DNA of 63,233 nt, filler included, from Conidiobolus incongruus B7586 (GCA_000697335.1; 8 parts of 8 records of this genome joined end to end with filler, not necessarily neighbours in it); one strand, 5' to 3'. Positions 1-57,639 are shown, counted from the whole stretch's first letter. Made by a program: numbers and translations. Notes: a model not told the origin generated them from the letters alone.

Positions 1-83
1 CAGCAATCTAGGGATTGGAATATAAATAACTTCCTCAATGGGGAAACTGTGAAATTACCTTATTAGGATTTACTGATGTTACA

Positions 84-91
84 TGCGTAAT
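84..91 (+). promoter_or_regulatory. TGCGTAAT upstream motif (bZIP-like) shared by the microprotein genes
   Basis: Exact TGCGTAAT at 84, 1253, 2430 and 3801. Variants ATTACGCG at 4950 and palindromic ATTACGTAAT at 6870. All lie about 180-400 nt upstream of a family start codon. Confidence 0.5.
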
Positions 92-295
92 TGTTAAGGT
101 GCCTATTGTTTAGGTACCTGCGCGAAATGCTCAAGCTAGCTGAGGTTGCATTTAATCAAAGTTTCCACTATGACTGGGTAAAAACATTCCAATATGATAT
201 CATTAAATATCGCGAAAAGTCTATAAAAAGGAGCCGTAAGAACTTTAACTCATCATCAAATCAAGTTTCAATCATAACAAATTAAAGTATCAAAA

Positions 296-466
296 ATGGC
301 TACCATCGACTTACATCAAATCGCACTTTTCGAAACCTTCACCATCGATCCCAAACTACGTGAACAAACATTTCCAGGATCTTCCAGAAACAGTTTGGAT
401 TCTGCAAAGGAATCAATCGCTAGTTCCAAGTCAAAACGCTCTAAATTTAAGTTACCTTGGTTTTAA
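296..466 (+). CDS. Microprotein family copy 1, 56 aa: MATIDLHQIALFETFTIDPKLREQTFPGSSRNSLDSAKESIASSKSKRSKFKLPWF
   Basis: Manually translated ATG(296)..TAA(466). AAAATGG start context, TATAAAAA at ~222. Homologous to 7 other copies with many synonymous differences. Confidence 0.88.
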   Translation: MATIDLHQIALFETFTIDPKLREQTFPGSSRNSLDSAKESIASSKSKRSKFKLPWF

Positions 467-1430
467 TTGCTAATGTCCCATATGTGAGACAGTTATATTT
501 ATCCTACTGAGTTGTATTTTAATTAATATTTAACATTTGAAATTGATGTATATACCTTATCTATTTTTTATTAATAAACTCTTATTATAACCAAAGTATT
601 AATTAATTTACAATTTATCAATATTTTAAAAATATCATCGTTTGTATTTTATCAATTTGCTACTATTTAATATATATATATGATATTTCAATCTAATGAA
701 TTAATGATACAGAATGTCAATTCAAATGTACTGTTGTTATTTTGTATTGTAAAATTATATACAATCGAGTATTAATAGTATTAATAAACGAATATTAATT
801 TTCATTTAATTTAAATATGAAGTCAATATTACACATACACTAGAAGAAAAATTTATATCAATATAACTATTGTAATTCTAGTTGATATTTCGTTAGTGTT
901 ATAGGCAATAGATGACATAGATGAATATATGATTTCATTTCTAAAGCTCTCATAATCTAGTAATCTAAAGGATCTTAGTGATTAAAAGTGCATGATGATA
1001 TAAGAAGATTTACTAAGCATAGTAGCTAAATTCTGTGACATACAATCATATAAAAGAAATTATTACATGGCGATTCTTGCTGTAATTGAAATGAAAATTA
1101 ATTGAAAATCGCAGTCAAATTAATGATTTAGGGAATGTGTTTAATATCACTATATATGGAAGCAATCACAATTAGACTTGTTCTACAATTTAATTGATTG
1201 TTGAATGCCAAACCCTGTATTTCACTATACAAATTATGCAACTTTAAACATCTGCGTAATTTTCAATATGTTCAGTGATTGGCGGAAATTTACTAGTATT
1301 ACTGGATTACTGATATGATTATTGTAAATTTATGATGTGGAATTTATATCAGAAAACAATATATAAAGGTCTTGATGCCACTATCAAACTCTACGTCAAA
1401 CAATCTATTTATCACTTCATCAATAATCAA

Positions 1431-1601
1431 ATGGCTATTGTCAGTTTACACCAAATTGCTGTCTTTGAAAACTTCACCATCGATCCTAAATTACGTGAAC
1501 AAACATTTCCAGGATCTTCCAGAAACAGTTTAGATTCTGCAAAGGAATCAATCGCTAGTTCCAAGTCAATACGCTCTAAATTTAAGTTACCTTGGTTTTA
1601 A
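1431..1601 (+). CDS. Microprotein family copy 2, 56 aa: MAIVSLHQIAVFENFTIDPKLREQTFPGSSRNSLDSAKESIASSKSIRSKFKLPWF
   Basis: Internal ATG of track ORF 1332..1601 aligns with the family start. TATATAAA at ~1360 lies inside the apparent N-terminal extension. Confidence 0.88.
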   Translation: MAIVSLHQIAVFENFTIDPKLREQTFPGSSRNSLDSAKESIASSKSIRSKFKLPWF

Positions 1602-2832
1602 TTGCTAATGTCTCATATGTGAGATAGTTATACTTATCCTCTTCTCGAGTTGTATTTTATTAATATTTAGCACATGCTGTTGATGTATATACTTTATTTA
1701 TTTTTTTATTCATAAACTTTTATTATAATAACTATATTATTTTTTCAAATTTTCTATATCACCATGTTTTTATTATCATTTTTGATTTTTATTTCATTGA
1801 GATTATAACAAATTAGTACATATTTTAGAGTTTATATTCAATATTACTAAATCTATTGGCTACTTTTATGATTATTTAGAATATATAAATTTATATTATT
1901 TAAATTATAACAAGTCAATATTACTATTATCTTTGTTTTTGGAAAAATGTTCAGCTTATTAAATTTGAGCTTTAAATATATCAATTTATAATTATTTATT
2001 AATATGCTTAATAATCGAATATTATCAAAGTACTTGTTAAGTTATTGTTGATAAAATTATTGTGCAACCTATTTTATATTATATTATAATTACATCTAAT
2101 ACATGATATTATTCACCAACACTTCATTGTGTATAATAATCTAAAGAGAATTAGTAATTAATAAGGTGAAGTGATGATATGAAATTTATGAAGTAACTAA
2201 ATTCTGTGGCATACGAGCATATAATACAAATTAATTCTTGGCAATTCCTGCTCAAATGAAATTGATTAAAAATTGCAGTCAAATTAGCACATCGGGAAAT
2301 GTGATTAAAGTTACTATATATAGGAGAAATACTAAATTTCCTTTTGTTTCCCCTCCAATTTTTCTCCAATGCCAATCCCTCAAGTTTAATTGCCTGTTTC
2401 AGTTATTCAATTATGTAACTTATATATTCTGCGTAATTTTCTATATGATTGTTGATTAATGAAAAATCTTGCAACTAATAGGATTTAGAACCCCTAATGA
2501 TCTTCGAAGATCAGAGAATTATGTTCATGTCTCAAAAGATATTGAACTTTGATTTAATTTTATATGAAAAATACATATTTTTGATAAATTCATATACTTT
2601 ATGTTTGGGTATTAAGAAAGTTCTTTTTGCTTCAGATATTATCTGGGGTTCTGAGAAATGGTGGTTTGATTAATAACGAGTATTTACGAATAACTAATAT
2701 GTTTATTGTAAAATACATAAGTGGTAATTTGCATTGGAGAATTTATTTAATGACAGAATTTAGTATATAAATACTGAATAGTTACCATGAGATTCTTGAT
2801 CAAATTAAATCTATTACTTCATCAATAATTCA

Positions 2833-3054
2833 ATGGCTGGCATCAGTTTACACCAAATTGCTGTCTTTGAAAACTTCACCATTGATCCTAAACAGCGTGA
2901 AATTACATTTCCAAGATCTGGAAAAAATAGTATGGAATCTACAACTTCAATCTCTACAATAGGATCCAAGAGCTCTTTAATCTCAACATCTACTATTTCA
3001 TCCATGAAATCTAAGTTGAAGTTGAAGTTGAAGTTGAAACTTCCTTGGCTTTAA
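2833..3054 (+). CDS. Microprotein family copy 3, 73 aa, with longer Ser/Thr segment and (KL)5PWL tail
   Basis: Track ORF with the same N-terminal block. AAGTTG hexamer expansion near 3013-3040. TATATAAA at ~2764. Confidence 0.85.
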   Translation: MAGISLHQIAVFENFTIDPKQREITFPRSGKNSMESTTSISTIGSKSSLISTSTISSMKSKLKLKLKLKLPWL

Positions 3055-4002
3055 TGATTATCTTCAAACCATTTTTTCTAATTCATGTTTTAAAATGAAA
3101 TTTGTATAATATTTTATATATTACATAATAAAATCGAATACATTATAAAATTTAAATTTAATGATGCTCTTAATATTTATAACGAGATCTTGAAAATATT
3201 ATTTCAATATAATTTATCAGATATTTTTTAACTTTTTTTTCAATAATATACTGTAAGAATCTATTTACCTTCAAGATGCGATATAAATATATAAAACTAT
3301 TATATCAATTGACATATCAAAAATAAATAGATATTTTACTTTGTTAGACATATAATTCTAACATCATTGATAATTTGGTACTCTCCCGACAAATCAAATA
3401 TTAAATAAATTAAAATATGCTATGAATTATAGATCAATATATTGATAATATTCAAACAGGAAATAATGAATAAATCAATATAAAATAAAATAATATAATA
3501 TTCTATAAGTTTGTATTCATAAAAGCTGACTATAATATTGGATGTTCTAAGAAATATCCATTATAGTTAATATTTATTAATTAGTAAGAATTAGTAAACT
3601 ATAAACAAACAAAGCATATTTGAATCAAATGAACTTGGCAATGTGTATATAAAATTTTTGATTATAACTAACTCTGCCAGATTTGGTAATAATTCAAACA
3701 GATTACCTTTTATTACCTGTTCTGAAATCTTTCGAGATACAATTGAAATTCCGGTTTCAAGTAATCAAATTAAAGTAACAAATAATCTGCGCAAAAGTTG
3801 TGCGTAATAAGCATGAGTAAAATTGACTGAGCTGAATTTACAGAGTAATAATATTGAATATTACCTTATATGTGAATTTAGATTAAATAATTATAAGTAA
3901 ATCAGTAATTATATTTGAGTCGAAATTAATATATAAAGACCCTATCTTACTAGTTATGTATCACCAAATATCAATTTATCGAATTCTAACAATAGTTATC
4001 AA

Positions 4003-4176
4003 ATGGCTGCTATCAGTTTACAACAAATCGCTACTTTGGAAAACTTTACTATTGATCCCAAACTCCGTGAACAAACATTCCCAGGATCTGGAAGGAATAG
4101 CATGGAATCTACAACTTCAACTTCTACTCATAGATCCAAGAGATCAGTGCTCAAATTTAAGTTTCCTTGGTTTTAG
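4003..4176 (+). CDS. Microprotein family copy 4, 57 aa: MAAISLQQIATLENFTIDPKLREQTFPGSGRNSMESTTSTSTHRSKRSVLKFKFPWF
   Basis: Manually translated ATG(4003)..TAG(4176). TATATAAA at ~3930. Track ORF 3956..4186 is an off-frame shadow. Confidence 0.88.
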   Translation: MAAISLQQIATLENFTIDPKLREQTFPGSGRNSMESTTSTSTHRSKRSVLKFKFPWF

Positions 4177-5244
4177 CCTTCTATGAGATCCCTTAAAAAT
4201 TGTCTATAAATCATGGTCCACTAATGAATTTGTATATATGTTAACCTGTATTTTTATCTAGTAAAAATAAATAAATAATATTAAAGAAAACATTTTTGAT
4301 AATTGAATTTATGAATGTTTTTTATAGCTTTGATTGAATAAACAAACTAATTGTATTAATATCAGATGCTATTTCAATTTTAAATGAAATCGACTTTCCA
4401 TAACATTGCTTTATGTCATTTGACAGTTCATACGATATTGAATTTGCTTTATATTAGCAAATAATTTATTGATTGATGTCATTTTTATGAATGCGCTGTT
4501 TGTCATTAACATTTCACAATAATTTTACAAAAATTTCAATTTCACCTAATAAAATTTTTATTCTTTATTAATGATACCTATGCGCTAATATACATCAAAA
4601 TACAATATATTCTATTACTCTAAATTGCTTTTTACATATTTTGTTGTAGCAATATAAGATTAATATATCAAAATAGTTATCAGTTTATATATGTTAAATA
4701 TGCCAAACTATAGCAATAAATCAACTTGAAACTATTAGGGTTCAACATTAGATCAATTTTAAAGTGGTAACAATATTTCAAAATTCAAAATTTACACTTA
4801 GGCACAGATTAATTAATTCAGATGTTCTATACTAAACTATTCCTAGTAATGAAAACGATCTTGTTTTGATTTTAGTTATTCTCAGGTTAATCAAACCAAA
4901 TGATGATTTTGAAATGAATTTCGCAGCGTATTCAATTTAACCCTAATATATTACGCGAAATATGTGATTAATGATAAATTACTTTCCTGTAATTACCCTT
5001 ATAGATTTTAAAAATTCAATTGCGTTTCTTTTCTCTATTAACACTTACTAATGAAGAATAATCTTTGTAAAATAAATTAGCTTTTTGGCATAAGGAACAG
5101 TAAATTAATGTTATCATCATATATTACTATTCAGCTCAAATAGCCGCGTGAAAATTAATAACGAAGTTTAGGTAATCTGACATATAAAATAATCATGAAA
5201 AATCTCACTATATCTTCATCAAATAGCAATTTATTAATTATCAA

Positions 5245-5405
5245 ATTGCTGACATTAGTTTACATCGAATCGCCACTTTGGAAAACATTACTATTTATCC
5301 CAAGTGAGACTTCATCCACTGAATCGAATTGTAATGATATTAACTTTGCAACAAGCTTCACTCCTATCATAAGGTCTATAAAAATGTTCAAATTCTTTGT
5401 TATAG
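5245..5405 (+). pseudogene. Microprotein family copy 5, pseudogene: (I)ADISLHRIATLENITIYPK*
   Basis: ATG>ATT at 5245 and premature TGA at 5305-5307. Weak KMFKFF remnant of the tail near 5381-5400. 3' limit approximate. Confidence 0.75.
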
Positions 5406-5959
5406 TCTTATTTAATATCATTTATTATCATATTATGCATTTTTCCATTTAATGTGGATTATGATATGGCATTTCTAGAGAACTTAAATAAAATTTAAAA
5501 TAGCTAATAATTGTAAGATGCATTGAAGCTTTATAGATAATTTTAATTGTATATTATTTAAAATTAACATATTGTTGCTATCTTCAGTAAGGTAATAACA
5601 AGTTATCAAAAACAACCTTTGAATTTTTATTGTGATACATATTTTATATGGATGAATTTTTACGTTTATTCTGATATTTTTCAAGTTGAGCTATATTTGA
5701 ATGAACATATCATGATCAAAAGGGCATATTTAAAATATTTGTATAATTTTGATTTGATAAAAATTGATAGTTGAAGGAAATTAAATTGGTTTTTTACCCA
5801 TTATATATCTCAAAATGTAATATGAAATATATAAAAAAATTAAAAAGTTAGCGAAGAGTAAAGAAATGAGATAATATTATAGATTCAAGTTATAATATGA
5901 GCATGCAAAAGAAAGTATGAAAAAGGAGATTAAAAATAATAAAGTTGATACTAAAACAA

Positions 5960-6031
5960 AGCTCTGCCTGAGAATCGAACTCAGATCGCAGGATTCAAAG
6001 TCCTGAGTGCTAACCATTACACCAGCGGAGC
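5960..6031 (-). tRNA. tRNA-Gln (TTG)
   Basis: Reverse complement GCTCCGCTGGTGTAATGGTTAGCACTCAGGACTTTGAATCCTGCGATCTGAGTTCGATTCTCAGGCAGAGCT folds as a cloverleaf. Anticodon loop CTTTGAA. Confidence 0.93.
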
Positions 6032-6514
6032 ATATTAAGCTAATAACTTGATTCATTTTGATTGGTAATTAATAATAATATTATATTATTATATTATTAG
6101 TATATTTTAGTTTATTTCAATGATCTTATACATCTCAGTCCAAAACTCCGATTTTATACATTGTTAATTTTATCATAAAAATATTATAACTCAAAATAAT
6201 CATTTTCAATGCTACTCATTTGACACTATTAAAATTCAAATGTTTGTTTCTCTGCTTAGAATATACCATATGCTCATAAATACAGTTTCAATATAAAATA
6301 TTAAATACGTATTGATTATTCAAACTGAAAATATTGATGTAATAAATAATATGTTTGAAAATTTGAAAATACAATTTTAATAAAACCAGTGTTTTTTATT
6401 TTGATCATATTTATTAATTAATTTAAGTAATATAAATGCATCTGTTAGGCGATGTTTCAAAATGATATTTACAAGAATTGTTTTGACGTCGGCTTACAAT
6501 AAAGGCTAGAGGGA

Positions 6515-6685
6515 TTAAAACCATGGGAATTTGAGCTTAAAATGCTTAGATTCGGATTTTTGATAAGATCCTGAAGATAATTCTAAACTGCTTCTAGCAG
6601 ATCCTGGAAACTCTTGCTCACGCAATTTAGGATCAATAGTAAAAGTTTCAAAGAGGGCGATTTGCTGTAAACTGATAGTGGCCAT
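6515..6685 (-). CDS. Microprotein family copy 6, 56 aa: MATISLQQIALFETFTIDPKLREQEFPGSARSSLELSSGSYQKSESKHFKLKFPWF
   Basis: Manually translated on the minus strand. Intact ATG..TAA, TATATAAA about 65 nt upstream. Confidence 0.88.
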   Translation of the reverse strand: MATISLQQIALFETFTIDPKLREQEFPGSARSSLELSSGSYQKSESKHFKLKFPWF

Positions 6686-7098
6686 TTTATCTGTAGTTAT
6701 TTATAAGTAATGTGTTCAAACTGATAATCATCATTCACCAAAGCATCCCTTTATATACGCCAAAATAACCAATGCGCAGATATTTACTATTAGTCATATT
6801 AGTAATTGAATATAGTATATCATTCAGTTTATAAGTAGATTTGGGTATGTGAATATTTTAACCAATTTGATTACGTAATATATCGAGTTTGGATTATTCT
6901 GGAATTTCATTTAAACTAAATTTAATCTTTTTAACCAAGTCTAAATCTATCAGTTTGACAACAATTTACCAAATGGAGAAATAGTATCTCATTGTAGAAG
7001 GTTGCGAACTGATTGGAAGGATATATTATTTTTGCTGTTATCTCACCTAGCTATTACATCATTTTTGATCTAATTCATAATTATAATTAAGTTTCAAT

Positions 7099-7099
7099 A

Positions 7100-7181
<82 letters not shown>
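7099..7181. repeat. (ATT)n microsatellite, about 27 units
   Basis: Perfect trinucleotide run read directly. Confidence 0.95.
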
Positions 7182-8046
7182 GTAATATTATATTAAAACT
7201 GGTAAGATTTATTCATTGATAGTGAAATGTAATTATTATCAAATTTCCATATTTGATACTGTTTAATATTTGCTGTAAGAGTATATTAATATCTATAGTA
7301 AACATAAAAATATAACTTTTAATATCAACTTTTTGAACAAGCTAAGATTCACTCTATCCATAATAATAAAGTTAAAAAATATTTGTTCCAATGATATCTA
7401 TAGTAAATATATAAATAATACTTTATTTTCAATACCAGATAAACTTGCTTCAATTTTTTAAAATGTATTATTTGTAAAACAAAAACATTCTGATTATTTT
7501 TATATTTAATTTATAATTGTAATCAAAAATCTTTTGGACTTGAACACCTTAAAACCTTTAAATGATATTAAAAGAATGTTCCTATATTGAAGAAGTAACT
7601 TTGAAATTTTTCCATTCTTTATTCTACACAATAACTATATACTCTCAAATGATTTTCTCAAGAGTGATTCAAAGTCTCTGACATTTTCAAAACATCTTAT
7701 AGGAGCCAAACTAAAAATGATACTATAAGTTAGTTTTATAATATTTGAATTTTAACTTTTCTATACATAACTAAGATTTTTACAATTGCTAATTAATAAG
7801 TATTCTGTCACTTGATTTCACATTTCGAATTCTCGGATATCTATAAATCACAATATTAAATATATTTATTACTTAAATCATTTAATCAAACTAACAATAT
7901 AATATCCAAATATGTTTGAAGATAATATTTTTTTTTATTAAATATATAAAATAAATGAATGAATGACGATAAATATGGTAGCTATTTACAACTTTTTACA
8001 ATAGACACAGTCTTATACTTGAAGCAGATGGATTGATCAAAGTGAA

Positions 8047-8217
8047 TTAAAACCAGGGAAACTTGAGCTTAAAGCGCTTGGGTTCAGATTCTTGATGATA
8101 TCCTGATGTTGATTCTAAACTGCTTCTAGCAGATCCTGGGAAGACTTGTTCGCGCATCTTGGGATCGATGGTAAAAGTTTCAATGAGAGCGATTTGTTGA
8201 GGACAGATGGAAGCCAT
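8047..8217 (-). CDS. Microprotein family copy 7, 56 aa: MASICPQQIALIETFTIDPKMREQVFPGSARSSLESTSGYHQESEPKRFKLKFPWF
   Basis: Manually translated on the minus strand. Intact ATG..TAA, TATATAAA about 70 nt upstream. Confidence 0.88.
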   Translation of the reverse strand: MASICPQQIALIETFTIDPKMREQVFPGSARSSLESTSGYHQESEPKRFKLKFPWF

Positions 8218-9144
8218 TTTAATATTTATTACTTGAAATATATCTTATTGGTATGAATTGATGATGATACTATAGATCATTTTGACTGTTTATATACACT
8301 TAATTTCATAAGGGATTGAAATTCTCATGAACTCAATATTTGGCTAAACTTACCTTGTGTTACTATTTTCGGAATTGCAAAGCTATATGAAATTCTCAGC
8401 ATACAGAATTCAGCCATAACTACCCGAAAGCAATTATTCTAGATTATTCGCATCATTTTAAATTTTTTAACTGCATTTTTTCCAAACGGATAATTTTGGA
8501 AAAAATTGCCAATTGGATATTTTTACCATTTATGCAGGCACTTGATGGATACAAATTTATAACTCAAAGTTTTTTGGGGTGCTGGATATTTTGATGACAT
8601 CATTTGCGAATAAAAATAACTAATCAAAATACAGCATTTAAAATGATATATTATGTATCTATATGTTTTTATTTCATACATTTTTAATCTATCATAGAAT
8701 ATAAAATATACAATGACAAATTTAATTATAAATAGAATATAAACAATCAATATTATTTATTTTTGTAGGCCAATATATTAACTATTTGCAGTTTGTGCTA
8801 GATTAAGAATCTTAGAATATAATAGATGCATATTATTTGAATCTGGTTGGATGGGAGGATAAAAAGATATAGCTTATTAATTCAGATGAAGACTTATCTA
8901 CTCAAGAACCTTGGAAATCGCTAAAGCTTTAAAATATATCAAAATTAATTATTTATAAATGTAATAATAAAATTAATGTATGAACCCAACTAGTTTCATT
9001 AATTTATTAATAAAAAATTCATATTCTAATTATATATAGTAAGTTTATTTACAATGTGAATAAGAAATATGTGATAATGATAATATACAGGGTTATCAAT
9101 TCAACAAGTGAATGAAATCAAAAACTAAAATCTTGATCTAGACT

Positions 9145-9369
9145 TTAAAACCAAGAAAACTTGATTTTAAAATGCCTTAGCGCAGAAGTATAACTTTGTC
9201 CCTTATTCGAGTCTAAACTATCTCTGTCTGATCCTGGAAAAGCTTTTCGACCTAGTTTGGGATCAATGATAAAAAATATTTCAAAGTGAGCAATATGATG
9301 TAAACTGGTGGCACCTAATTGAAATAATGATGATTCGAAAATATAATGTAATTGAGTGAATAAACTCAT
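9145..9369 (-). CDS. Microprotein family copy 8, divergent, possibly pseudogene: ...LGATSLHHIAHFEIFFIIDPKLGRKAFPGSDRDSLDSNKGQSYTSALRHFKIKFSWF
   Basis: Homologous ATG lost (near 9318). Frame stays open to an upstream ATG at 9369. One-codon insertion and P>S in the PWF tail. Confidence 0.6.
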   Translation of the reverse strand: MSLFTQLHYIFESSLFQLGATSLHHIAHFEIFFIIDPKLGRKAFPGSDRDSLDSNKGQSYTSALRHFKIKFSWF

Positions 9370-12300
9370 TATAATGAAATCCTTTTACATAACATTTTGG
9401 CGAATAATTACAATTATTTTGATTCAACACTTGTAATGAAAATTTTAACCGTCATTGATAATTTATAAACCTACTATTAGCAAACGTACCATTAAAGATA
9501 CCAAGTTATATTGTGAACTATTCTAGATATATGGAAAATGAACAATTGATAGCTTCATATAGTCAATACTGTTGTAATTATCTATTAAATATTATATATG
9601 TATATTATGGTAATCTGGGAATAATATATTTTAATTTTTTACATAACAAGCACAAAATATATTGACGACAATTTGATCCCAATTCCCATTGCTCTTAGCT
9701 TGTTGACTCATTGAATGGATACTGTTTATAGATATCAAAAATTGAGAATTGAGAAATTTTTTTAAATATAATACACTTTATATATTTATATATGCTAGGA
9801 CTTGGTAAATATTTTCCATCCAATTTGAGCCAAAATAACTGTTGAATGCTATTATCGAAAACAAACTCCTTAATGATATAATACTCCAGTCAATGTAGAT
9901 ACTTCACTTCAAAATAAATAGAACCAAAAATGAAATTGGCTGATAAGTATTAGATCTTTTTAATATAAACTAAATAACAACTCAATTGTTGAGTATTTTA
10001 CACAGATAGTGTTCAAATATTGAGATTGAAAATTCTCACCAAAAATCAAAAAAAATTACGATTTACGCCTGTCAAATTTTAAAAAAACATCGGAAGTTTT
10101 CGGACTATACAATTGTTTAATTGGATTTGGTAAATTACGTCATTTAAGAATCGTTGGCAAATTGCCACATGCAATAAATTCCCAAATTTAGTATTAACAT
10201 ATTTATATAACTATATTAAGTATATTGCGTTGCAAAATATTTTTGGTTAATTGACTGGAAACATGAATGAAATTCTAATTATTTAATAGTAATATACTCA
10301 AAAGTATACATTCAATATTGACCATTTATAACTTAAATTTCGATTCATCAATACAATTTTATTATTATTTCCTGATTATTAATTTCATAATTTTTATATA
10401 AAATCGATATATAGTTAGTAAAATATCAATATATATCCTTTTAATAAGATTTTCATCAAATTATCAATAATATCAATAATATCAATATATGATTTTGACC
10501 TAATTACCCAATTATCCTATATTAACTATATATGTTTAAAAGTACTTGAATTTTTTTATTAAAATGCTTCAATATCAAAATATTCAGCACCAATTTAAGT
10601 ATAGAAAAATTAATGTAATGATTTTTATCTATCTTTCAATTATCAAAACCATAGTTTACCCAATTTGCTACATAAAAATTGGTAACAGTACTGGATTTTT
10701 CAAACAATGTTGTACTGAATAATATTTATTTTAATTGTTTTAGGTATTATTACTATTTTAAATTCCAGCGCAGTTTTATACTAATCTACCCTTGTTATCC
10801 ATTATCTACATAATAGAATATATCATTGTGTAATATCATTAATCGTAATAATATTACTTTATCTTTACATTCAGCATTTATTAATCAGATAGTTTTTATC
10901 TATATATTTTGAAAATATTCAAGAAATTCCAAATAAAATTTACATTTTAAAACATAGTAATATACCAACTGGATTGGGAAATGCATTTTGCTAATTATGT
11001 ATTAGTTTTTCATAATTATGCAGAAATGAAAAATATACCTGATTGTAAAGTAAATTTTAAAAGACTGTGCTTGATAATAATTTAATTATTTTTTGAATTG
11101 AAGTTGATTCCAAAAATTTCTATTTTTATCATTATACAATTGGTTTATTTATTATATATCATTAAAAACTGTATAATTAATTGTTTGTCATGCTTAATGA
11201 ATTAACTAGTTAGATTTTTTTAATATCAATCATTATCCTGAAAAGGATTTAGTAGCGATAAATAGAATTCATTCAATTAATTTTCATTTAAATTTCAATA
11301 TAAATATAAGTAAAAGTACCTTCATCTCTACTCAAAGGTGATATTCGTTAAAAATTAATTGTTTTCAATATATCTTTAGTTATTTAATATTCATTAATAA
11401 TGGGTAGCCACATTAGTTTTTTGATAAATGAAAAAAAATAGTTTTCAAAATATTGAAAATAAATCTTAATATAATGATGCGTTATCCTTGTTTATTAATA
11501 CTGTAAAAATTAAAGGTGTAGAGAATTATTTCTTGAACATTAGAATTTCATTGTAGTTTTTTAAAATGTTTGATATTTTAATGCAAAATTAATTTGGAAG
11601 CATAAAAATATTATATTATTGTTTTGATACTTTTCAAATTTTCATAGCTGAATTAATAATAATATTATTTTTTGATTGAAAAAGATTTATAAAGACAAAC
11701 CACTTTATCTAATCTATATGGTTGGTATCTTTTAAATTGATAAAATTTTTATATCAATATGTCAATTCATAATATCTTGGCTCTATATTTGATTATTATA
11801 TTTTATATATCAGTTAGTTAAATTCCAGCAATATCATTATAAATATATGACAAATCCAGTTAAATTTCAAACTCTATTGGTCGATTATTAATTTTGAATA
11901 TAATATAAATTATTCAGATAAAAATTAATTTTAATTAATTAACAATATTCAAATTTTCATTAATGAAAATTTATACATTAACTCATAGTTCATTAGGACT
12001 GAATTTTTTTTCGTATGGCTTAGTTCTATCAACTTTGATTGATGATAGCTGTGAATTGAGATATGCTAAATATATTATAAACAGAATAAATAAAACTTTT
12101 TACATTTCATCAAATCAATGTAATAATGAATTTGAATATACCGGTTTCAGCCTTGAAATAAAAATCAATATTTTTAAGTCTTAATATATTTTATTTGAAA
12201 AAAGTTTTAAATATTACTTGATGCATCTATTATTTTGATTCATAACTTTTTAGTCAATTCTGCAGGCAATTGTCAAAAGTGGTTATTTACAAAGGTAGAG

Positions 12301-12934
12301 TTTGGGATATAAGCTTTTTTAATGAGAATTTACAACCAGTTTAGTTTCACCTTTAATCATATCCAATATTGTTTTTCGAGGTCATTTAATATCTTTGATT
12401 ACTCTATGATTGGGCTAGAGGCAGTTTTTTGGCCCTTATAAGCATTTCTTTTGTTCCAATTTGATATTTTAGCTAAAATGAGCTTCAAATTGAGCTTAAA
12501 CATTATTTCATTAGAAATTATAATTAGATTATCTACTAAATTAACGATTATAGAACACGAAATCATTTTCTTGTATACTCCAAGAACTTGAAAGTACCAA
12601 ATATTTTCCTTGATGAAATGAGGCGCCTATCGAGATAAATATAAATGAAAAATATTTAATAAATAAACTTTATTAAGCTTAAATTTTCCGCATCCTTGTA
12701 AATAATTCCAAATGTGATGACAAATACCATCCAAAAAACTGGAAATCAACCCATATGAAAATAGATCTAACAATCCATCAAATATCATTATAACAAACCA
12801 TATAAACTTAAAATATTAACTTAAGTTAAATATTATTATAACTTAATTTAAAAACTGTAATGAATAAACTAACTGATTTATCTTGAAAATATAATTCTTG
12901 CAAAATATTTCAAAGTATTCTAATTTTTAATATA

Positions 12935-13422
12935 CACTAGCCTGCAAAAGTGAGTCATAAAATTAAAAATCTTTATATTTTTATCATAATCTTAATTAAT
13001 TGTTATTCAAATGAATTTATATTGAACTATGTAATTGATATATATTTTTTATTTATAATATAATATATAAAGTTAAATTTTAATTAATTAATAACTGATA
13101 TATTATAATTAAAAGTATATTTAAGATAAGTTATATATTTGTGGGTTTTAGTATTGAGAGTAAAATTAATAATTAATATATCTACCTTTTACTTTTTTAA
13201 CCTTTTTAAGTTTATAAGGTATAAAGTTAATTAACTTTTTATATCAAGCAAAACTAATATTATTTTAAACTTCTTAAATATACTTTTAAAATTGATTTAA
13301 ATCTTTTATTAAAAGGGAAGCTTATATTAATATTTTTATTTAATCTTAAAGATATTTAATTAAGTTAAGATTAAAAGATTAAAGAGGTTATTCTATAACA
13401 GTTATTTTGTAATTTTTAAGCT
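12935..13422 (-). mobile_element. 3' end of a Tc1-like DNA transposon, degenerate, truncated by the gap
   Basis: TA then CACTAGCCTGCAAAAGTGAGTCATAAAAT (TIR-like). 13100-13422 is reverse-complement homologous to ~58720-59020. Confidence 0.75.
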
Positions 13423-13522
13423 NNNNNNNNNNNNNNNNNNNNNNNNNNNNNNNNNNNNNNNNNNNNTTAATTAATTAANNNNNNNNNNNNNNNNNNNNNN
13501 NNNNNNNNNNNNNNNNNNNNNN
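13423..13522. other. Assembly gap linker N44-TTAATTAATTAA-N44 (also 26169-26268, 31838-31937, 55863-55962, 57503-57602, 59359-59458, 61344-61443)
   Basis: Identical 100-nt all-frame-stop linker occurs seven times. Confidence 0.97.
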
Positions 13523-18052: not shown

Positions 18053-18825
18053 TTATACATTTATTAAATTTTTAATGATTTAATAATTTTAATTCAATAA
18101 TTATTAATAATCTAATTATCTTATTCAATTAATATGGGATGTTTGAATTTGACTAGTAAGATTGTTTAAATAGAATTTAGCAAAGAAATTGGTTATTTTT
18201 ATTTTCAATGATAGTTATCAATATTTAAATTATCTCATTCATTTTATCTTAAATCAATAAAATTTATCTTTATTTCCTATCATTTTGTATAAAAATTTCT
18301 AAATCCTAAGCTTGAATCCTTTTCTATGAATGCTTTTTAATTAACAATGTGAATTAATAAGAACAACAATTATTATTATTAAAATTATAATATATAACTA
18401 TTACTATAAATATAAATTTTTGATTCCTAGTAATATTTATCTAATCTTTATTAATATAAATATTGTACATTTTCAATATTTTAATATTAAACTCTAATTT
18501 TTGTCAAAATTATGATCAAAATGATAAAATATTTATTAAGATATTCATTATAATAATACTATGTCAAAACTACTTTAAATTTAATTTTTTAATATATAAA
18601 TTCCTCAAATCATATATATTATATATATCTTATATATTTTTGTTTTAAAGCCAATGTTTAACAATTCAAAATATTGACTTTCTATATTAGGAATTTTACA
18701 CCACATAGTTCTCTTGTTTTCCATAAAAATCTTAAAAAATCAAACCATATTAAAATTGACCATTTATTTCAGGTCAAAATTCAAGCTGAGATTTCGTCAC
18801 TCTTAACTCTTTATCAATAATAAAT

Positions 18826-19857
18826 ATGTTATTAAAAACAATCTATAGAAATCAAAATAATCTATTAAAGCATTTATCTCACTATTCAACCTCCAAGAAT
18901 CTACCGCCATGGCAATTGAGACCTTTTCAAATTGCCATAGATGGTCCAGCCGCTAGTGGAAAAAGTAATGTCTTTACTCATTTATATTCTACATTTTTTA
19001 ATGAATCTATTACTTTAGGTACTACTAGTAGAAAAATTGCTGACTTCTTCGGATATGTTTATTTGGAAACAGGTGACAAATTTTTATAAAATATTTATCA
19101 AGCAACATGATCTAATTTCCTTATGATAGGGGCTTTATATAGATCAGTAATACTATTCAAAAAATTTAAATCTAAACTCTTGCTTAATTTGTTAATATTT
19201 TAATTAAAATAGGTAACCTATAAAGCTTTACAATTGAATCTATGGAATGAATCCTCTTCTCCTGAAAAGTTGAAAGAATTACTTATTGAAGTAGCCAAAA
19301 ATTCAACCATATCATTGGAAAGAAACCCTGAAACCGATGAAATTCAAGTACTTCTCGATGGTACCGATATAACCCAAGATATTAGAAGTCCTTTAGTAAG
19401 CCAAAAAGTTTCTGAAGTAGCCTCAATTCAACCTATTCGTGACCACCTACATTCTTATCAAAAACACCTTGCTTTCAATAGTCCTTTAATCAACCCCAAA
19501 GATCCAAAGACTCATAATGAACACGGACAAATCGGTGTTATATTAGAAGGTAGAGATATTGGCTCAGTCATTTTACCTCAAGCAGACATCAAATTTTTTA
19601 TTAAAGCTGATGTTAATTCCCGAGCTCTTCGAAGATATCAACAGCTATTAGCTTCAAAACCATTAAATTCTCAGAAAGTTAGCTTAGAAGAAATCAAAAA
19701 AGAAATTGAAGCCAGAGACTTGGCTGATACCACAAGAGAAGTATCTCCTCTAATCCAACCCAAAGATGCAATTGTTATCGACACTACCAATATGACAATT
19801 GAAGAGCAAGTTCAAAAGATTATTAGTTTAGTTCAGAAGAGACTCATTGATTACTGA
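18826..19857 (+). CDS. cmk: Bacterial-type cytidylate kinase with putative mitochondrial presequence; exons 18826-18964, 19019-19072, 19130-19146, 19213-19857
   Basis: Spliced product reads IAIDGPAASGKSTT...YLETGALYRSVT...VS.VAS...EGRDIGSVILP.A..KFF...RD..D..R..SPL...DA..IDTT. Confidence 0.88.
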
Positions 19858-26010: not shown

Positions 26011-26269
26011 CTATTATATATAATAGCTTCATTATATTAAATATTTAAATTAATATTAAAATATATTTGACAAAATATTTTAATTAATTATATTGAGAAA
26101 TATTAGTTTTATTTTTGATAAATAATTTTTTTAATATAATTTAAATATTTGGAATATTAATAATATTANNNNNNNNNNNNNNNNNNNNNNNNNNNNNNNN
26201 NNNNNNNNNNNNTTAATTAATTAANNNNNNNNNNNNNNNNNNNNNNNNNNNNNNNNNNNNNNNNNNNNA

Positions 26270-31700: not shown

Positions 31701-31937
31701 AAATATAAGGCAGACTTTTAGATAGTTATGTTAAAGTATTTATTTGGTTAATTTTTATATTAAGATTTATAAATATATTATTAATAATTTATATAATATA
31801 TAATGATATTTATTATAAAATAGAGCTTAAATGATATNNNNNNNNNNNNNNNNNNNNNNNNNNNNNNNNNNNNNNNNNNNNTTAATTAATTAANNNNNNN
31901 NNNNNNNNNNNNNNNNNNNNNNNNNNNNNNNNNNNNN

Positions 31938-32580
31938 AATCAGATTCTTCAACCTTGGCAACAGCCTTGGGAACTTCTTCAGAATCAGAATCAGAGTCGC
32001 TGCTGCTGTCGCTGTCTGAGCTGGAAGAATCAGAGTCGGAATCAGATTCTTCAACCTTAGCAGTAGCTTTGGGGGCAGCTTCGATTTCAGCATCAGAGTC
32101 GGAATCGCTGTCTGAGCTGGAAGAGCTTGAAGAATCGGAGTCGGAATCAGATTCTTCAACCTTGGCAACAGCCTTGGGAACTTCTTCAGAATCAGAATCA
32201 GAGTCGCTGCTGCTGTCGCTGTCTGAGCTGGAAGAATCAGAGTCGGAATCAGATTCTTCAACCTTAGCAGTAGCTTTGGGGGCAGCTTCGATTTCAGCAT
32301 CAGAGTCGGAATCGCTGTCTGAGCTGGAAGAGCTTGAAGAATCGGAGTCGGAATCAGATTCTTCAACCTTGGCAACAGCCTTGGGAACTTCTTCAGAATC
32401 AGAATCAGAGTCGCTGCTGCTGTCGCTGTCTGAGCTGGAAGAATCAGAGTCGGAATCAGATTCTTCAACCTTAGCAGTAGCTTTGGGGGCAGCTTCGATT
32501 TCAGCATCAGAGTCGGAATCGCTGTCTGAGCTGGAAGAGCTTGAAGAATCGGAGTCGGAATCAGATTCTTCAACCTTGGC
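31938..32580. repeat. Coding tandem repeat, three apparently identical 207-nt (69-aa) units
   Basis: Unit starts at 31938, 32145 and 32352, with a partial unit at 32559. Runs into the gap. Confidence 0.9.
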
Positions 32581-33362
32581 AATGGCCTTGGGGGCAACTT
32601 CGGCATCTGAGTCAGAGTCGGAATCACTGGAAGAGCTGGAGGAGTCGGAATCGGAGTCAGATTCTTCAGCCTTAGTTTGGGTTTTAACAGGAGTAGTTTC
32701 ATCATCAGAGTCAGAGCCTGAACTGGAAGAGGAGTCGGAATCGGATGAGGAATCAGAGTCGGACTCTTCAACCCTGGCAACGGCTTTAGGGGCTACTTCA
32801 TCGGAATCGGAGTCAGAATCAGAATCTGAGCTGCTGCTGCTGTCACTATCGCTGTCAGCTTGTACAGTAACTTTTTTGGGAGAATTAGCCTTGGTAGAGG
32901 AGGCACTGGAGCTAGAACTAGAACTAGAACTAGAGCTAGAGCTAGAGCTAGAATCGGAATCATCACCAGAGTCTTCATCATCAGAAATATCCATAGCGTC
33001 GTCAGAATCTAAAAATCCATCTATTAATTTCTGTGGATAAATCATGTGAAAATATTGAACTACCATCGGAGCTGCTGCTACTATCGCTAGAATCTTTACT
33101 ATCACTAAAAACCTCAAGTTAGTCAAAACCAACAAATTTAAATAATTACAACATACCACGATTGGTTAAAAATTTCCAATAAACTCTTCTCGGGCTTATC
33201 TTCACTAACCTAAAACTCAAAATATCAATACCACATATCTATAACAAATCAATTAAAACTTACACCCTTGACTTCGCTCTTTAAACTTTTGGCAACTTTA
33301 CTGAGACCTTGCTCATTGAGGAAATGATAAATTAGGTTGTATAATTCTTTATTTTGAGTCAT
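31938..33362 (-). CDS. SRP40: SRP40/Nopp140-like nucleolar Ser/Asp-rich protein with N-terminal LisH; exons 33362-33264, 33209-33157, 33104-33064, 33008-gap
   Basis: [30 protein letters not shown]isH-like motif, then alternating acidic-Ser and K/A/P blocks. C-terminal domain not visible (gap). Confidence 0.7.
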
Positions 33363-38409: not shown

Positions 38410-40109
38410 TTAATTATTTATTATTTTATCTCTATATTAATTGCATTAATAAATTAAAGTAATCTAGATTTAGTGATAATAAAATTACCTATATTCTTCA
38501 ATATTTTCAAATGTAAGAATGACTAAATCACGCTTGGAGAGTGGATTCTTAGTAAGTGGACAAATGTTCTTAGAGTTGGGATTAGTGAGACACCTGAGCC
38601 AAGTGTTATAGCCCATAACGTGACCATAGGGTGAGATAGCTGGCTTAACAACTGGATCGAGTGTGATAGGATCGATGAAATCAGGAATGGGATTGTTGGG
38701 ATCACATTCATCTTCTTCATCTTCATCGTCGGGAATAAAGGTGTTGACAGGGACAACTGGACATGCTTCTTCCTCTTCATCGTCGAGATTGTCTGCTGCG
38801 GTGGATCGAGTCCTGGCAGTGGTTCTCCATGTGGTGGAGTTCTTGCGTGTGTTTTCGTACCACTCACCACTGGAGTCGTCTGAGTCATCATCTCTAGCAC
38901 GTCTCTTTCTTCTTGTGCGCGTGGTTGATGAGCGAGTTCCCGTAGATTGATCATCGCTATTATCTTGTTGAGCACCCCTCATTATATGCTTGGTATGTGT
39001 GCGGAACGTTCTCTTGACAGTTCCATCTTTATTCTTTTGCTTAGTGGCGAAGAGGTAATGGACTTTACCTTTTTCGTCGATGACGTAGTTGGGATCATGT
39101 ACCTCACCGTTAACGACGAGTTGACGATAGAAATTGGAGCATTGATAACCTACGCGACCAGGGATTGTCATTGAGAAGATACCCCACTGGCCGTCAGCAC
39201 CGATTTCGGCCAATCGATCGAAAAATAATTTTCTTTCATGAGCCGTCCAAGCACCAGTTCTCTGTTCCTCACCAGGGGCATTGAACCTGTAGTAATATGT
39301 GTTTGGCTTGGTGTCGATAGCCTTGTATGCCTTGATACGTGCTTCGGACCATCCTGCCATGGCTTTAGAGGGATCCTTTTGAAGTTGTTCTAAAGCGTCG
39401 TCAAGAGCAAGGCGGGCTACGGTATGATAATGTCTTTTGGCAGTGTCAGAAGTATTCTTCTTGGAGGTGGAAGTTCTCTTAGCCACTAACTTTTCGTAAG
39501 CTTCAATTTGTTCTACACTCATCATATTTGAATGCTTATGTTTCTGGTGCTCAGTGGCAATTTGCTTTCTAATAAAGCTCAAGTAACCAGGTTGAGAAAA
39601 TTGAGCGATAACTTCTTGCTAAACAAAAATTAAAATCTTTAAAAATTGATGTTAATTAAAAAATATTACTTCGTCATTATCATTCTCATTTAAAGCCTTT
39701 TTAATTTCTTCATCGGACAAAAATTCGAACACCTCTCTAATTTTACCGGATTTCTCGTTAAATTCCCTCTGTTCAAACTGTTTAAATTTTTCTTGTTGTA
39801 AAGCTATTCTCTGTTGAATAATATCTTTTTCGGTTTCCGTTACCGTACCACTATAGATATTATCTTTACGGATGTTCCCTGTCGTTGAAGGGTTATATAA
39901 CTCGTTTAAGTTAAGATTGTTTACTTTTTCTGATAAATGAAATTCATTTGTAGGGGTGGCTACTTGTGTTTGGTTCTTAATTAATAACTAAAGTGACAAG
40001 GTTGAGTTAAAGAGATCAGCAAAAGGGATAAATATCTATAGTGAAATAAAAATATGATACTTACCTTAATATCAACTCTGGATTCAGTTGGAGGGTACCA
40101 AGGTGTCAT
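38410..40109 (-). CDS. CUE-like + Myb/SANT-like + U-box-like protein; exons 40109-40065, 39987-39670, 39618-38489, 38431-38410
   Basis: WT..ERKLF...QWGIFSMTIPGRVGYQCSNFY (Myb-like), FIDPITL..V.KPAISPYGHV...CPLTK.PL (U-box-like), VFEFLSDEEIKKAL (CUE-like). First exon less certain. Confidence 0.75.
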
Positions 40110-44518: not shown

Positions 44519-45970
44519 TTAATATGAGTTATTGAGTTTCAGTTTTTCATAAGGTTGAGGATTAGGTAAAACCGCAGTAATGAAGAATGCTATAATGGAG
44601 ACGAGTGCATAAATTTGATAGAGGTATGGGACAAAGGCACTGGGGCCGCCAATATTCTTGCAGTAAATGAAAAGGAATTGTGACGCTACAAAGCCCAAGT
44701 TTCTCATGGCTCCGTAGTAGCCGTTGGGAGATGGCTCGGACGATGGTGTGATGATGGTGGGATTGAATTGGGGCATGGATGTGCCGTTGGGGCCTAATTG
44801 AACAAATGCATTGGATAGGGCCATAAGCCACACGTAAAGATGAGGAGATACATCCTTGATTTGGTGAAATGCGAACCCGAGAACACTGTACATGATAGTC
44901 ATACCTGCAAAAGCGATTAATTGCAAGTACTTGCGCCCGATTCTTTCAATGAGAAGAGTGGCTACAAGGTAACCAGGAAGAATACCAATAGAGACAATGA
45001 CTACACCACCAGTAATGGTAAAATTAGTGGTGGCAGGTGTGGAAGTATCAAGAAACCCGACAGGTGTGAAAATGACACCCAAATTCAAGTTATACCCCCA
45101 GTAAATGAGATTAGTAGCAAACATGGTATACATACCGCCAAGAAGAATTTTTAAGTTTTTAAATTTAGAAAAATGGGAAATGGAATCGGACCAAGTGAAT
45201 GATACTGGACCTTCAGCTGGGAGAGATTCATTTAATGTGTGACTAGAGACCAATCTCTCGGTATCTGCCTTTAATTCAGGATCTTTACGTTCAGTCATTC
45301 TATAATAAAGTGTAATGGCTGTTGGAATAAATATAGCAGCTTCATAAATCCTCCAACCATAGTCCAAAAGATCTGTATTATCTTTTGGAACATATCTAAG
45401 AGCACCAGCAACTACCAAACTAAGAACCGAACCGACGATAATAGCGAGAGTGAAAGGAACAAAAATCGCTATCATAATCAATTTTGGAGTAGCAGTAGGA
45501 GCCAATGGTGATTCTGCAATAGCTTTAAAGGGATTGTCAAGGGCAAACCCAATACCAATAGCAAAACGCCAGAATACCATAGCTGCGATGAAATCTATAC
45601 CACGTCCCCTACCAGTCAACGCCAGTCCAATACTACTTGCCAACACAATTAAAAGCCCAGAATTTTTAACAGGTTGGGAGATCTTATTAGCAAACATATA
45701 ACTCATCCATTGTGCTACCAAGCAACCTATAGGAGCAGCTACCTTTAGTAAAATATCATAAATATAAGGGATATTCCCATCAAAATATACCAAAGACACA
45801 AATAGTACGAAAAAAGCGAGTACAAAACTATCGTAACAATCTATAAAATAACCCGCGCCATCGATCATATATTTCCTCAAAATTGGCCAAGTGATTTTTG
45901 TAGAATTGACTTGATGATGGCCCAAAGTCTCTTCAATCACAACCTCTGAACTATTAGTCGTCTTGACCAT
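44519..45970 (-). CDS. MFS transporter, divergent PHO84-like paralog 1 (intronless)
   Basis: GAGYFIDCYDSF, D..WR, LPGY...IERIGRKYLQL, GPN motifs; about 12 hydrophobic segments. First ATG at 45970 (track ORF starts at a GTG). Confidence 0.85.
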   Translation of the reverse strand: MVKTTNSSEVVIEETLGHHQVNSTKITWPILRKYMIDGAGYFIDCYDSFVLAFFVLFVSLVYFDGNIPYIYDILLKVAAPIGCLVAQWMSYMFANKISQPVKNSGLLIVLASSIGLALTGRGRGIDFIAAMVFWRFAIGIGFALDNPFKAIAESPLAPTATPKLIMIAIFVPFTLAIIVGSVLSLVVAGALRYVPKDNTDLLDYGWRIYEAAIFIPTAITLYYRMTERKDPELKADTERLVSSHTLNESLPAEGPVSFTWSDSISHFSKFKNLKILLGGMYTMFATNLIYWGYNLNLGVIFTPVGFLDTSTPATTNFTITGGVVIVSIGILPGYLVATLLIERIGRKYLQLIAFAGMTIMYSVLGFAFHQIKDVSPHLYVWLMALSNAFVQLGPNGTSMPQFNPTIITPSSEPSPNGYYGAMRNLGFVASQFLFIYCKNIGGPSAFVPYLYQIYALVSIIAFFITAVLPNPQPYEKLKLNNSY

Positions 45971-57336: not shown

Positions 57337-57639
57337 TATATATCTAATTTATATTATATAATTAAAGAAATTAAAAAATTATTAAATATTTAATTTAATA
57401 AATAATATTAATTTAAAAATAAAGATATAAAAAATTAAAAAACAAAATATATATTATTAAATTAAACCAATTAATTTAAAATTAAAATTATTTAATATTT
57501 AANNNNNNNNNNNNNNNNNNNNNNNNNNNNNNNNNNNNNNNNNNNNTTAATTAATTAANNNNNNNNNNNNNNNNNNNNNNNNNNNNNNNNNNNNNNNNNN
57601 NNAAAACTTTATATTATAATTATTTTAATTTATTATATA

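What the first reader, a model, noticed from the sequence alone, without database searches (positions are those of the whole stretch)
296..9369. Hidden tandem array of eight genes encoding an unrecognised ~56-aa microprotein family
Seen: eight homologous intronless units about 1.1-1.5 kb apart, most with a TATA box 60-75 nt upstream. Four copies are exactly 56 aa. All intact copies have a conserved ~35-aa N-block (MAxIxLxQIAxFExFTIDPKLREQxFPGSxRxSxES), a hypervariable Ser/Thr-rich segment and a conserved terminal K(F/L)K(F/L)PWF. Conserved residues often differ at synonymous sites while spacers diverge, which points to selection on the peptide. There is no signal peptide and no Cys pattern, and I recognise no family. 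Inference: the conserved-variable-conserved layout resembles RiPP precursors (compare Amanita MSDIN leader-core-follower), but no maturase is in the window. A co-regulated cytosolic effector or phospho-regulated microprotein family is equally plausible. The array may continue left of the window.
Basis: partly seen in the sequence, partly recalled or inferred. Interest (0 to 1): 0.88.

Follow-up and report, generated by a model that had tools for sequence, protein, structure and literature searches.

The report
Fungal array of tiny conserved proteins
Six intact and two decayed copies of a gene for a roughly 56-amino-acid protein lie side by side in a likely Conidiobolus-type fungus and show purifying selection; the protein fits no described family and likely acts inside the cell as a phosphorylation-controlled binding tether rather than as a cyclic-peptide precursor.

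Summary
The array is real. There are exactly eight homologous units in the window: six intact ORFs (56, 56, 73, 57, 56, 56 aa) and two decayed copies. Five lie on + and three on -, converging on a tRNA-Gln gene. The N-block (pN/pS 0.28) and C-tail (0.13) are under purifying selection; the Ser/Thr-rich middle is relaxed (0.75), not diversifying. All six intact copies keep a TATA box at -69 to -79 and both decayed copies lack it. Six of eight share an upstream bZIP-like motif. Six outside relatives exist: two hypothetical Conidiobolus coronatus gene models and four unnamed JGI proteins. There is no Pfam, PDB, fold or literature hit. The MSDIN/RiPP reading fails every defining test I could run. 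Best reading (0.4, inferred): a cytosolic, mostly disordered microprotein with two conserved docking segments held at a near-fixed distance and a basic-x-Ser-hydrophobic-acidic site in 13 of 13 sequences, acting as a phospho-switched tether or inhibitor, amplified by tandem duplication. Expression, processing and partner are untested. Verdict: a genuine, undescribed, lineage-restricted microprotein family of a familiar general kind.

The parts
296..466 (+). copy 1, intact 56-aa ORF
   Evidence: 81% identical to C. coronatus KXN65410 over 95%
1431..1601 (+). copy 2, intact 56-aa ORF, sister of copy 1 (89% identical; 3' flank still alignable)
2833..3054 (+). copy 3, intact 73-aa ORF with a longer linker and expanded Lys-Leu repeat; possibly relaxed (1 syn : 7 non-syn private changes)
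4003..4176 (+). copy 4, intact 57-aa ORF, sister of copy 3
5245..5400 (+). copy 5, pseudogene: start codon lost, frameshift and stop after about codon 20; right end approximate
   Evidence: nhmmer 5247-5305, E 9.7e-9
5960..6031 (-). tRNA-Gln(TTG) gene between the two converging sub-arrays
6515..6685 (-). copy 6, intact 56-aa ORF
8047..8217 (-). copy 7, intact 56-aa ORF, sister of copy 6
9145..9318 (-). copy 8, decaying: homologous start lost, TATA lost, 1 syn : 11 non-syn private changes; frame still open from an upstream ATG at 9369
222..229 (+). TATA box of copy 1 (-74)
1360..1367 (+). TATA box of copy 2 (-71)
2764..2771 (+). TATA box of copy 3 (-69)
3930..3937 (+). TATA box of copy 4 (-73)
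6750..6757 (-). TATA box of copy 6 (-72)
8289..8296 (-). TATA box of copy 7 (-79)
85..91 (.). shared upstream ATTACG[C/T] motif (bZIP half-site-like), copy 1, -211
1254..1260 (.). shared upstream motif, copy 2, -177
2431..2437 (.). shared upstream motif, copy 3, -402
3802..3808 (.). shared upstream motif, copy 4, -201
4950..4956 (.). shared upstream motif, copy 5, -295
6870..6879 (.). shared upstream motif, copy 6, a full TTACGTAA palindrome (the YRE-A sequence), -194

Best explanation
This is a tandemly duplicated family of ~56-residue proteins under purifying selection that likely stay in the cytosol of a likely Conidiobolus-type fungus, are predicted to be mostly disordered, and likely work uncut as phosphorylation-switched tethers or inhibitors of a larger fungal protein. 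Shown: six intact ORFs, two conserved segments (residues about 5-35 and the last 7), a relaxed linker of near-constant length, an invariant Ser33 in an [RK]-x-S-hydrophobic-acidic context, conserved TATA boxes, local duplication and decay of copies. Inferred: a bZIP-type factor switches the copies on together (stress or development); copy number supplies dosage; the two conserved segments, both with alternating hydrophobic/polar periodicity, dock as extended strands on a partner, or the basic-aromatic tail docks on acidic membrane; a basophilic kinase phosphorylates Ser33, and perhaps the downstream serines, and changes that binding.
For: Selection: pN/pS 0.28 (codon bootstrap 0.17-0.41) for codons 2-35, 0.13 (0.01-0.34) for the tail and 0.75 (0.54-0.98) for the linker, pooled over 15 pairs of 6 intact copies. 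[RK]xS[ILMV][DE] occurs in 13 of 13 sequences, including the two most divergent (42-47% identity), with Ser always at position 33 in the 11 measured. The Ser33-to-Trp distance is 21-23 residues in 9 of the 10 sequences that have the Trp, although the linker sequence is not conserved. Residues 28 to the tail are 68-95% disorder-promoting (11 of 11), and AlphaFold2 finds no confident fold (pLDDT 61, pTM 0.21). No hydrophobic 15-mer exceeds 1.21 on the Kyte-Doolittle scale in 13 sequences, so no signal peptide or membrane span is evident (crude test). The strand-period hydrophobic moment exceeds the helical one for residues 14-27 in 11 of 11 and for the tail in 10 of 10. Upstream ATTACG[C/T] is found in 6 of 8 promoters, against 3 of 71 control tiles; the best CG-containing 7-mer reached 5 regions in only 2 of 500 shuffles. 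TTACGTAA is the yeast AP-1 YRE-A element (PMC3111461, passages). Neighbouring copies are sisters in the DNA tree.
Against: No partner, phosphorylation, transcript or peptide was shown; the kinase-site reading rests on a recalled consensus. Only 1 of 13 has the full R-R/K-x-S pattern. No recalled docking motif is conserved in register: PP1-type RVxF matches 8 of 13 at differing positions, FxFP 2 of 13, a BC-box 1 of 13, and WRPW, CaaX and PTS1 0 of 13. AlphaFold2 drew short helices (6-13, 19-25) where the moment analysis suggests strands. Copy 3 has a 31-residue linker and 1 syn: 7 non-syn private changes, so the constraints are not uniform. The promoter motif was chosen after looking, is absent from copies 7 and 8, and may be inherited through paralogy. 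A multi-copy, fast-turnover array confined to one lineage is also typical of host- or competitor-facing genes (own knowledge).
Confidence: 0.4

Rival explanations
1. Precursor of a processed (RiPP-like) peptide. A cytosolic protease would excise either the Pro-flanked octapeptide at residues 20-27 or the aromatic C-terminal 7-10 residues, and a distant maturase and an exporter would complete the pathway.
For: Conserved-variable-conserved layout and a clustered multigene family, as for MSDIN (PMC5159998, passages). Pro27 is invariant in the 11 aligned sequences and Pro19 is present in 10 of 11; they enclose 8 residues, the modal MSDIN core length. Lys-Arg lies shortly before the tail in 6 of 13.
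Against: Length 55-73 versus 33-37 aa. The variable segment lacks flanking prolines, is 13-31 aa and Ser/Thr-rich, and has pN/pS below 1. The Pro-flanked octamer is charged and conserved rather than hydrophobic and hypervariable, and P0006 has Ser in place of the first Pro. There is no signal peptide for Kex2 access and no repeated cores. No peptidase, methyltransferase or DUF3328 hit among the 24 window ORFs scanned (24 of the 43 listed), but this is weak because of the artificial joins.
Confidence: 0.14
2. Leaderless, unconventionally released cationic peptide aimed outward (at competing microbes or an insect host), with the Lys/aromatic tail binding membranes.
For: Net charge +1 to +7, with a basic-aromatic amphipathic tail. 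Lineage-restricted birth-and-death array with two decayed copies. Conidiobolus s.l. includes arthropod and vertebrate pathogens (PMC9409958, passages).
Against: No segment shows pN/pS above 1. No secretion signal and no Cys scaffold. The conserved kinase-like site and acidic N-block are not needed for membrane lysis. Copies 6 and 7 are nearly neutral (+1).
Confidence: 0.16
3. Abundant structural or stress-protective small protein (self-assembling beta-strand tail, or a disordered desiccation protectant) made in bulk during spore formation.
For: Many copies with strong TATA boxes suggest a need for dosage. Alternating Lys/hydrophobic tail, expanded in copy 3. Mostly disordered.
Against: Sequence-specific invariant residues (E13, I17, F26, P27, S33) point to a defined binding surface. 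The Pro before the Trp in most copies would break a strand. The protein is not a Gly-rich or repeat-built hydrophilin.
Confidence: 0.14
4. Not functional as protein: relics of a repeat, a mobile element or an RNA family.
For: Two of eight copies are decayed; no expression data; no exact match among about 15 billion proteins for 8 of 8 translations.
Against: Codon-position bias and pN/pS 0.38 overall (0.27-0.50). Start, stop and TATA positions are conserved only in intact copies. Relatives at 42-81% identity keep the same length and frame. Rfam finds only 3 tRNAs in the window. The long inverted repeats are the genes themselves.
Confidence: 0.04

Closest known systems
Conidiobolus coronatus hypothetical proteins CONCODRAFT_12996 (KXN65410) and CONCODRAFT_80912 (KXN64805)
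   Same: Same family: 81% and 47% identity to copy 1 over 95-98% of its length; same length class and motifs
   Different: Uncharacterised gene models with no Pfam. The KXN65410 model ends without the Trp tail, whereas its cluster mate P0005 has it, so the model may be mis-spliced (inference). Their genomic arrangement could not be seen.
Amanita MSDIN cycloamanide/amatoxin precursors
   Same: Small leaderless ORFs, clustered multigene family, conserved ends around a variable middle
   Different: No sequence similarity found; fails on length, Pro-flanked variable core, core size and composition, terminal Leu-Cys and the coding intron (PMC5159998, passages)
Disordered phospho-regulated inhibitor microproteins (PP1 inhibitor-1/DARPP-32, endosulfine/Igo1, PKI); recalled, not tested by alignment
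   Same: Works-like analogy: a short docking motif plus a basophilic phosphosite about 20 residues away in a disordered chain
   Different: No homology (Pfam 0 of 7; PDB no real hit). RVxF is not conserved in register. Those are ancient low-copy genes, not lineage-restricted arrays.
Dikaritin/Kex2-processed repeat precursors and borosins
   Same: Fungal ribosomal peptide precursors; Lys-Arg occurs in 6 of 13 family members
   Different: No signal peptide, no repeated cores, no fused methyltransferase (PMC6514808, passages; one search found no longer fused form, which is weak evidence)

Membership tests
MSDIN (cycloamanide) precursors | Precursor of 33-37 aa (10-aa leader, 17-aa follower) | tested here: not met
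   55-73 aa versus PMC5159998 passages
MSDIN (cycloamanide) precursors | Hypervariable core of 6-10 aa flanked by conserved Pro | tested here: not met
   Variable segment is 13-31 aa without flanking Pro; the Pro-flanked octamer is in the conserved block
MSDIN (cycloamanide) precursors | Core biased to Pro/Ile/Phe and against Thr/Arg/Ser | tested here: not met
   Linker is 28-60% Ser/Thr in the 12 sequences measured
MSDIN (cycloamanide) precursors | Terminal Leu-Cys and an intron near the last codons | tested here: not met
   ORFs run uninterrupted to a stop after Trp-Phe/Leu; no transcript check
MSDIN (cycloamanide) precursors | Dedicated prolyl oligopeptidase POPB in the genome | not testable with these tools
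   No genome held; no peptidase among 24 window ORFs scanned
Dikaritin / Kex2-processed repeat precursors | Signal peptide | tested here: not met
   N-terminal 20 residues average at most 0.88 and best 15-mer at most 1.21 on Kyte-Doolittle; SignalP not available
Dikaritin / Kex2-processed repeat precursors | Repeated cores between KR sites; DUF3328 in the cluster | tested here: not met
   No internal repeats; no DUF3328 among 24 ORFs scanned, weak because of joins
Borosins | N-methyltransferase domain fused to the core | tested here: not met
   56-aa stand-alone ORFs; the search for longer forms found none among 7984 candidates (weak evidence)
PP1 inhibitor-1-type regulators | Conserved RVxF docking motif | tested here: not met
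   Recalled pattern matches 8 of 13 at inconsistent positions; most tails have Pro at the disallowed position
PP1 inhibitor-1-type regulators | Conserved basophilic phosphosite | tested here: inconclusive
   [RK]xS[ILMV][DE] in 13 of 13; phosphorylation itself untested
a-factor-type lipopeptide pheromones | C-terminal CaaX box (recalled) | tested here: not met
   0 of 13
Transposon or viral fragment | Homology to mobile-element or viral proteins; terminal repeats | tested here: not met
   Only a 19-aa match inside a long phage ORF, E 13-130 at database scale; no plasmid hit; no terminal repeats evident

The most novel reading that the evidence does not exclude
The family is the precursor set of an undescribed, leaderless fungal peptide pathway in an early-diverging (Zoopagomycota) insect- and vertebrate-infecting lineage. 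A cytosolic protease releases the Pro-flanked octapeptide or the Lys/aromatic C-terminal peptide, the conserved Ser33 phosphosite gates that processing, and the array is induced en bloc by a bZIP factor, giving a new class of ribosomal signal or effector peptides.
Probability: 0.12. Interest if true: 0.85.

Novelty: new variant of a known kind. Interest (0 to 1): 0.46.

Why it matters
Entomophthoralean fungi are genetically little studied, and genes this short are easily missed: 0 of 8 translations from this array are in a collection of about 15 billion proteins, and the two named relatives are unlabelled hypothetical proteins. The array gives a compact, testable object: a selected, probably co-regulated microprotein family with an invariant candidate phosphosite, whose only named relatives are in Conidiobolus. 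If it is a phospho-switched inhibitor, it is a lineage-specific regulator of a kind usually ancient and low-copy. If it is processed, it would add a new ribosomal peptide class in early-diverging fungi. Until expression and a partner are shown, it remains one more orphan family.

Tried and rejected
Family and structure searches. Pfam: 0 families for 7 of 7 copies at E<=1. NCBIfam: 1 of 11 members had one E 0.079 hit to a beta-lactamase model, dismissed. PDB sequences: one 14-residue hit at E 0.98 to the start of a Mei2 construct, chance. Foldseek PDB: 0 matches; VIA-align over 48,161 chains: 0 at Z>=2; both used a low-confidence model. ESM Atlas: no usable hit for copy 6; for P0001 only sub-0.9 leads and matches to a pLDDT-0.43 model. 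Longer or fused forms: none.
Context searches. Metagenome contig scans: 163 and 129 pattern matches, 0 confirmed, so no relative's neighbourhood was seen. Viral contigs: 7 loci, all the same 19-aa stretch within a long phage ORF (778 aa; 452 aa in the cut locus L006), rejected. Plasmids: no match.
Homodimer prediction: 'no answer' (score 0.00, alignment not used); not used as evidence either way.
Trees. The 13-row protein tree was unresolved (0 of 10 branches starred), so I make no claim on whether subtypes predate speciation, although P0006 is 73% identical to copy 6 and P0001 81% to copy 1.
Recalled motifs considered and rejected as not conserved: BC/SOCS box, FxFP, WRPW, PTS1, CaaX, insect-kinin C-terminus.
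Earlier findings of this scan: three look-ups, nothing.
Literature. No paper held CONCODRAFT; the accessions or the core motif; Conidiobolus + microprotein; or TTACGCAA + bZIP + fungal. Listings showed nothing on this family. No supplements were opened; expression tables there could list the C. coronatus models.
Full report
OBSERVATION. The region holds eight homologous units and no more: tblastn, a protein HMM over six frames and nhmmer agree. Six are intact ORFs (296-466+, 1431-1601+, 2833-3054+, 4003-4176+, 6515-6685-, 8047-8217-; 56, 56, 73, 57, 56, 56 aa), 61-89% identical to copy 1. Copy 5 has lost its start and is frameshifted and stopped after about 20 codons. Copy 8 has lost the homologous start and carries 1 synonymous against 11 non-synonymous private changes, compared with 8 against 6 summed over copies 1, 2, 4, 6 and 7. 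Five copies on + face three on -, with a tRNA-Gln gene between. Neighbours are sisters (1+2, 3+4, 6+7; support 86-94/92-96, none starred), which indicates local duplication followed by birth-and-death turnover.

SELECTION. Pooled over 15 pairs of the six intact copies, pN/pS is 0.28 for codons 2-35 (codon bootstrap 0.17-0.41), 0.75 for the linker (0.54-0.98), 0.13 for the last seven codons (0.01-0.34) and 0.38 overall. Third positions vary in 46 of 55 columns, first and second in 26 and 22. The pairs are not independent and some pS values near saturation, but the direction is clear. Copy 3 is an exception, with 1:7 private changes and a longer linker. No segment shows diversifying selection.

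PROMOTERS. A TATAWAWR box sits at -69 to -79 in 6 of 6 intact and 0 of 2 decayed copies; the background chance is 0.07 per slot. Upstream regions (-450 to -100) mostly no longer align: of 28 pairs only copies 2 and 3 stand well above shuffles (z 9.1; next 3.0). Yet ATTACG[C/T] persists in 6 of 8, against 3 of 71 control tiles. With the choice of motif paid for, 2 of 500 shuffles gave an equally shared CG-containing 7-mer. Copy 6 has the full TTACGTAA, which is the YRE-A element of yeast AP-1 factors (PMC3111461, passages). A bZIP-type regulator is an inference.

RELATIVES AND ORGANISM. None of 8 translations is in the protein collection. Profile searches returned five proteins: P0001 and P0002, P0003 and P0004, and P0006 (where P0001-P0004 match by construction). 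P0005 came as a cluster mate of P0001. P0001 and P0003 are hypothetical proteins of Conidiobolus coronatus; the rest are unnamed JGI proteins. With 81% identity to a C. coronatus protein and 24-27% GC in the gene-bearing pieces, the window likely comes from a Conidiobolus-type fungus; I did not test this with a marker gene. No relative's genomic context could be fetched. Pfam, NCBIfam, PDB sequence, two fold searches and the ESM Atlas gave nothing credible. The seven viral loci are a 19-residue coincidence in a long phage ORF.

ANATOMY. Across the 13 sequences: no signal- or membrane-span hydrophobicity; net charge +1 to +7; [RK]-x-S-[ILMV]-[DE] in 13 of 13; a [KR]-hydrophobic-[KR]-hydrophobic-x-W tail in 12 of 13. 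Ser33 lies 21-23 residues before the Trp in 9 of 10, and 1 to 4 residues follow the Trp, so the carboxyl end itself is not fixed. The middle is 68-95% disorder-promoting, and both conserved blocks show strand-period amphipathy. AlphaFold2 gives no confident fold (pLDDT 61.4, pTM 0.21, low-confidence helices).

CONTEXT CAVEAT. The window consists of eight pieces joined by identical 100-nt spacers with a six-frame stop linker. The array occupies piece 1-13422, where no stop-to-stop frame reaches 100 codons. The genes beyond (CS-domain protein, transporters, kinases, eIF3b, aminotransferase, Myb/U-box protein; 24 of 43 listed ORFs scanned) include no maturase but may not be true neighbours.

MECHANISM. 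Best reading (0.40): an uncut cytosolic, disordered microprotein in which two docking segments are held about 20 residues apart, with a basophilic-kinase site between them acting as a switch on binding to a fungal protein or acidic membrane; the array gives dosage under a shared inducible promoter. The gene structure, selection and motif conservation are shown; localisation, phosphorylation, partner and induction are inferred. Against it: no recalled docking motif is conserved in register, only 1 of 13 has a full RRxS, and nothing functional was measured. Rivals: outward-facing cationic peptide (0.16), processed RiPP-like precursor (0.14), bulk structural or protective protein (0.14), non-functional (0.04); the remainder (about 0.12) is mechanisms I have not thought of.

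COMPARISON. MSDIN precursors are 33-37 aa with a Pro-flanked 6-10-aa hydrophobic core biased against Ser/Thr/Arg, a terminal Leu-Cys and a late intron (PMC5159998, passages); this family meets none of these. Dikaritins need signal peptides and KR-flanked repeats, and borosins a fused methyltransferase (PMC6514808, passages); neither is met. One residual RiPP-like feature remains: prolines 19 and 27 enclose eight residues in 10 of 11 aligned sequences. The functional analogy to inhibitor-1, endosulfine or PKI is recalled and is not a membership claim.

NOVELTY. No paper in the searched library names the gene models, accessions or motif; the library lacks most subscription papers and I opened no supplements. 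PMC11105155 and PMC9409958 were seen as passages only and did not mention the family in those passages. Verdict: a real, undescribed, lineage-restricted microprotein family of a familiar general kind; interest 0.46, rising sharply if processing or a phospho-dependent partner is shown.

Noticed in passing
window 55963-63233 (four pieces): Four small pieces are copies of one repeat family (three pieces 74-84% identical over 1.2-1.4 kb, the fourth over shorter stretches), 14-16% GC, with 0 CpG against about 39 expected and low CA/TG. This is a methylation- or RIP-like decay signature in an early-diverging fungus; PMC11105155 (passages) reports possible RIP in Entomophthorales. The array's piece has CpG o/e 0.66, like the gene-bearing pieces.
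   Followed up: partly
window 13423-13522, 26169-26268, 31838-31937, 55863-55962, 57503-57602, 59359-59458, 61344-61443: Identical artificial 100-nt spacers (N runs around a six-frame stop linker) join eight pieces, some cutting through ORFs; adjacency across them is uncertain.
   Followed up: yes
window 38485-39987 (-): Gene with weak Myb-like and U-box hits in one 377-aa exon: an unusual Myb plus U-box combination.
   Followed up: no
window 18790-19857 (+): Cytidylate kinase (PF02224, E 2.6e-39) split over exons, with a basic N-terminal extension that looks like a mitochondrial presequence (inference).
   Followed up: no
window 44519-46021 (-) and 50501-51931 (-): Two paralogous intronless MFS transporters in tandem; they look like phosphate transporters (own judgement).
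   Followed up: no
window 31882-33165 (-): Long Ser/Asp-rich repeat ORF (nucleolar Srp40/nucleolin-like by appearance, recalled), cut by an assembly spacer.
   Followed up: no
window 7101-7181: Long (ATT)n microsatellite between copies 6 and 7.
   Followed up: no
window 958-1280 vs 2134-2457: Far-upstream regions of copies 2 and 3 still align (73-79%) although their coding sisters are copies 1 and 4, which suggests a duplication unit or conversion tract that spans gene boundaries.
   Followed up: partly
P0001 vs P0005: The C. coronatus model KXN65410 ends without the family's Trp tail while its near-identical cluster mate keeps it, so the public gene model may be mis-spliced; P0005 in turn carries a 73-residue N-terminal extension that may be a gene-caller overrun.
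   Followed up: no
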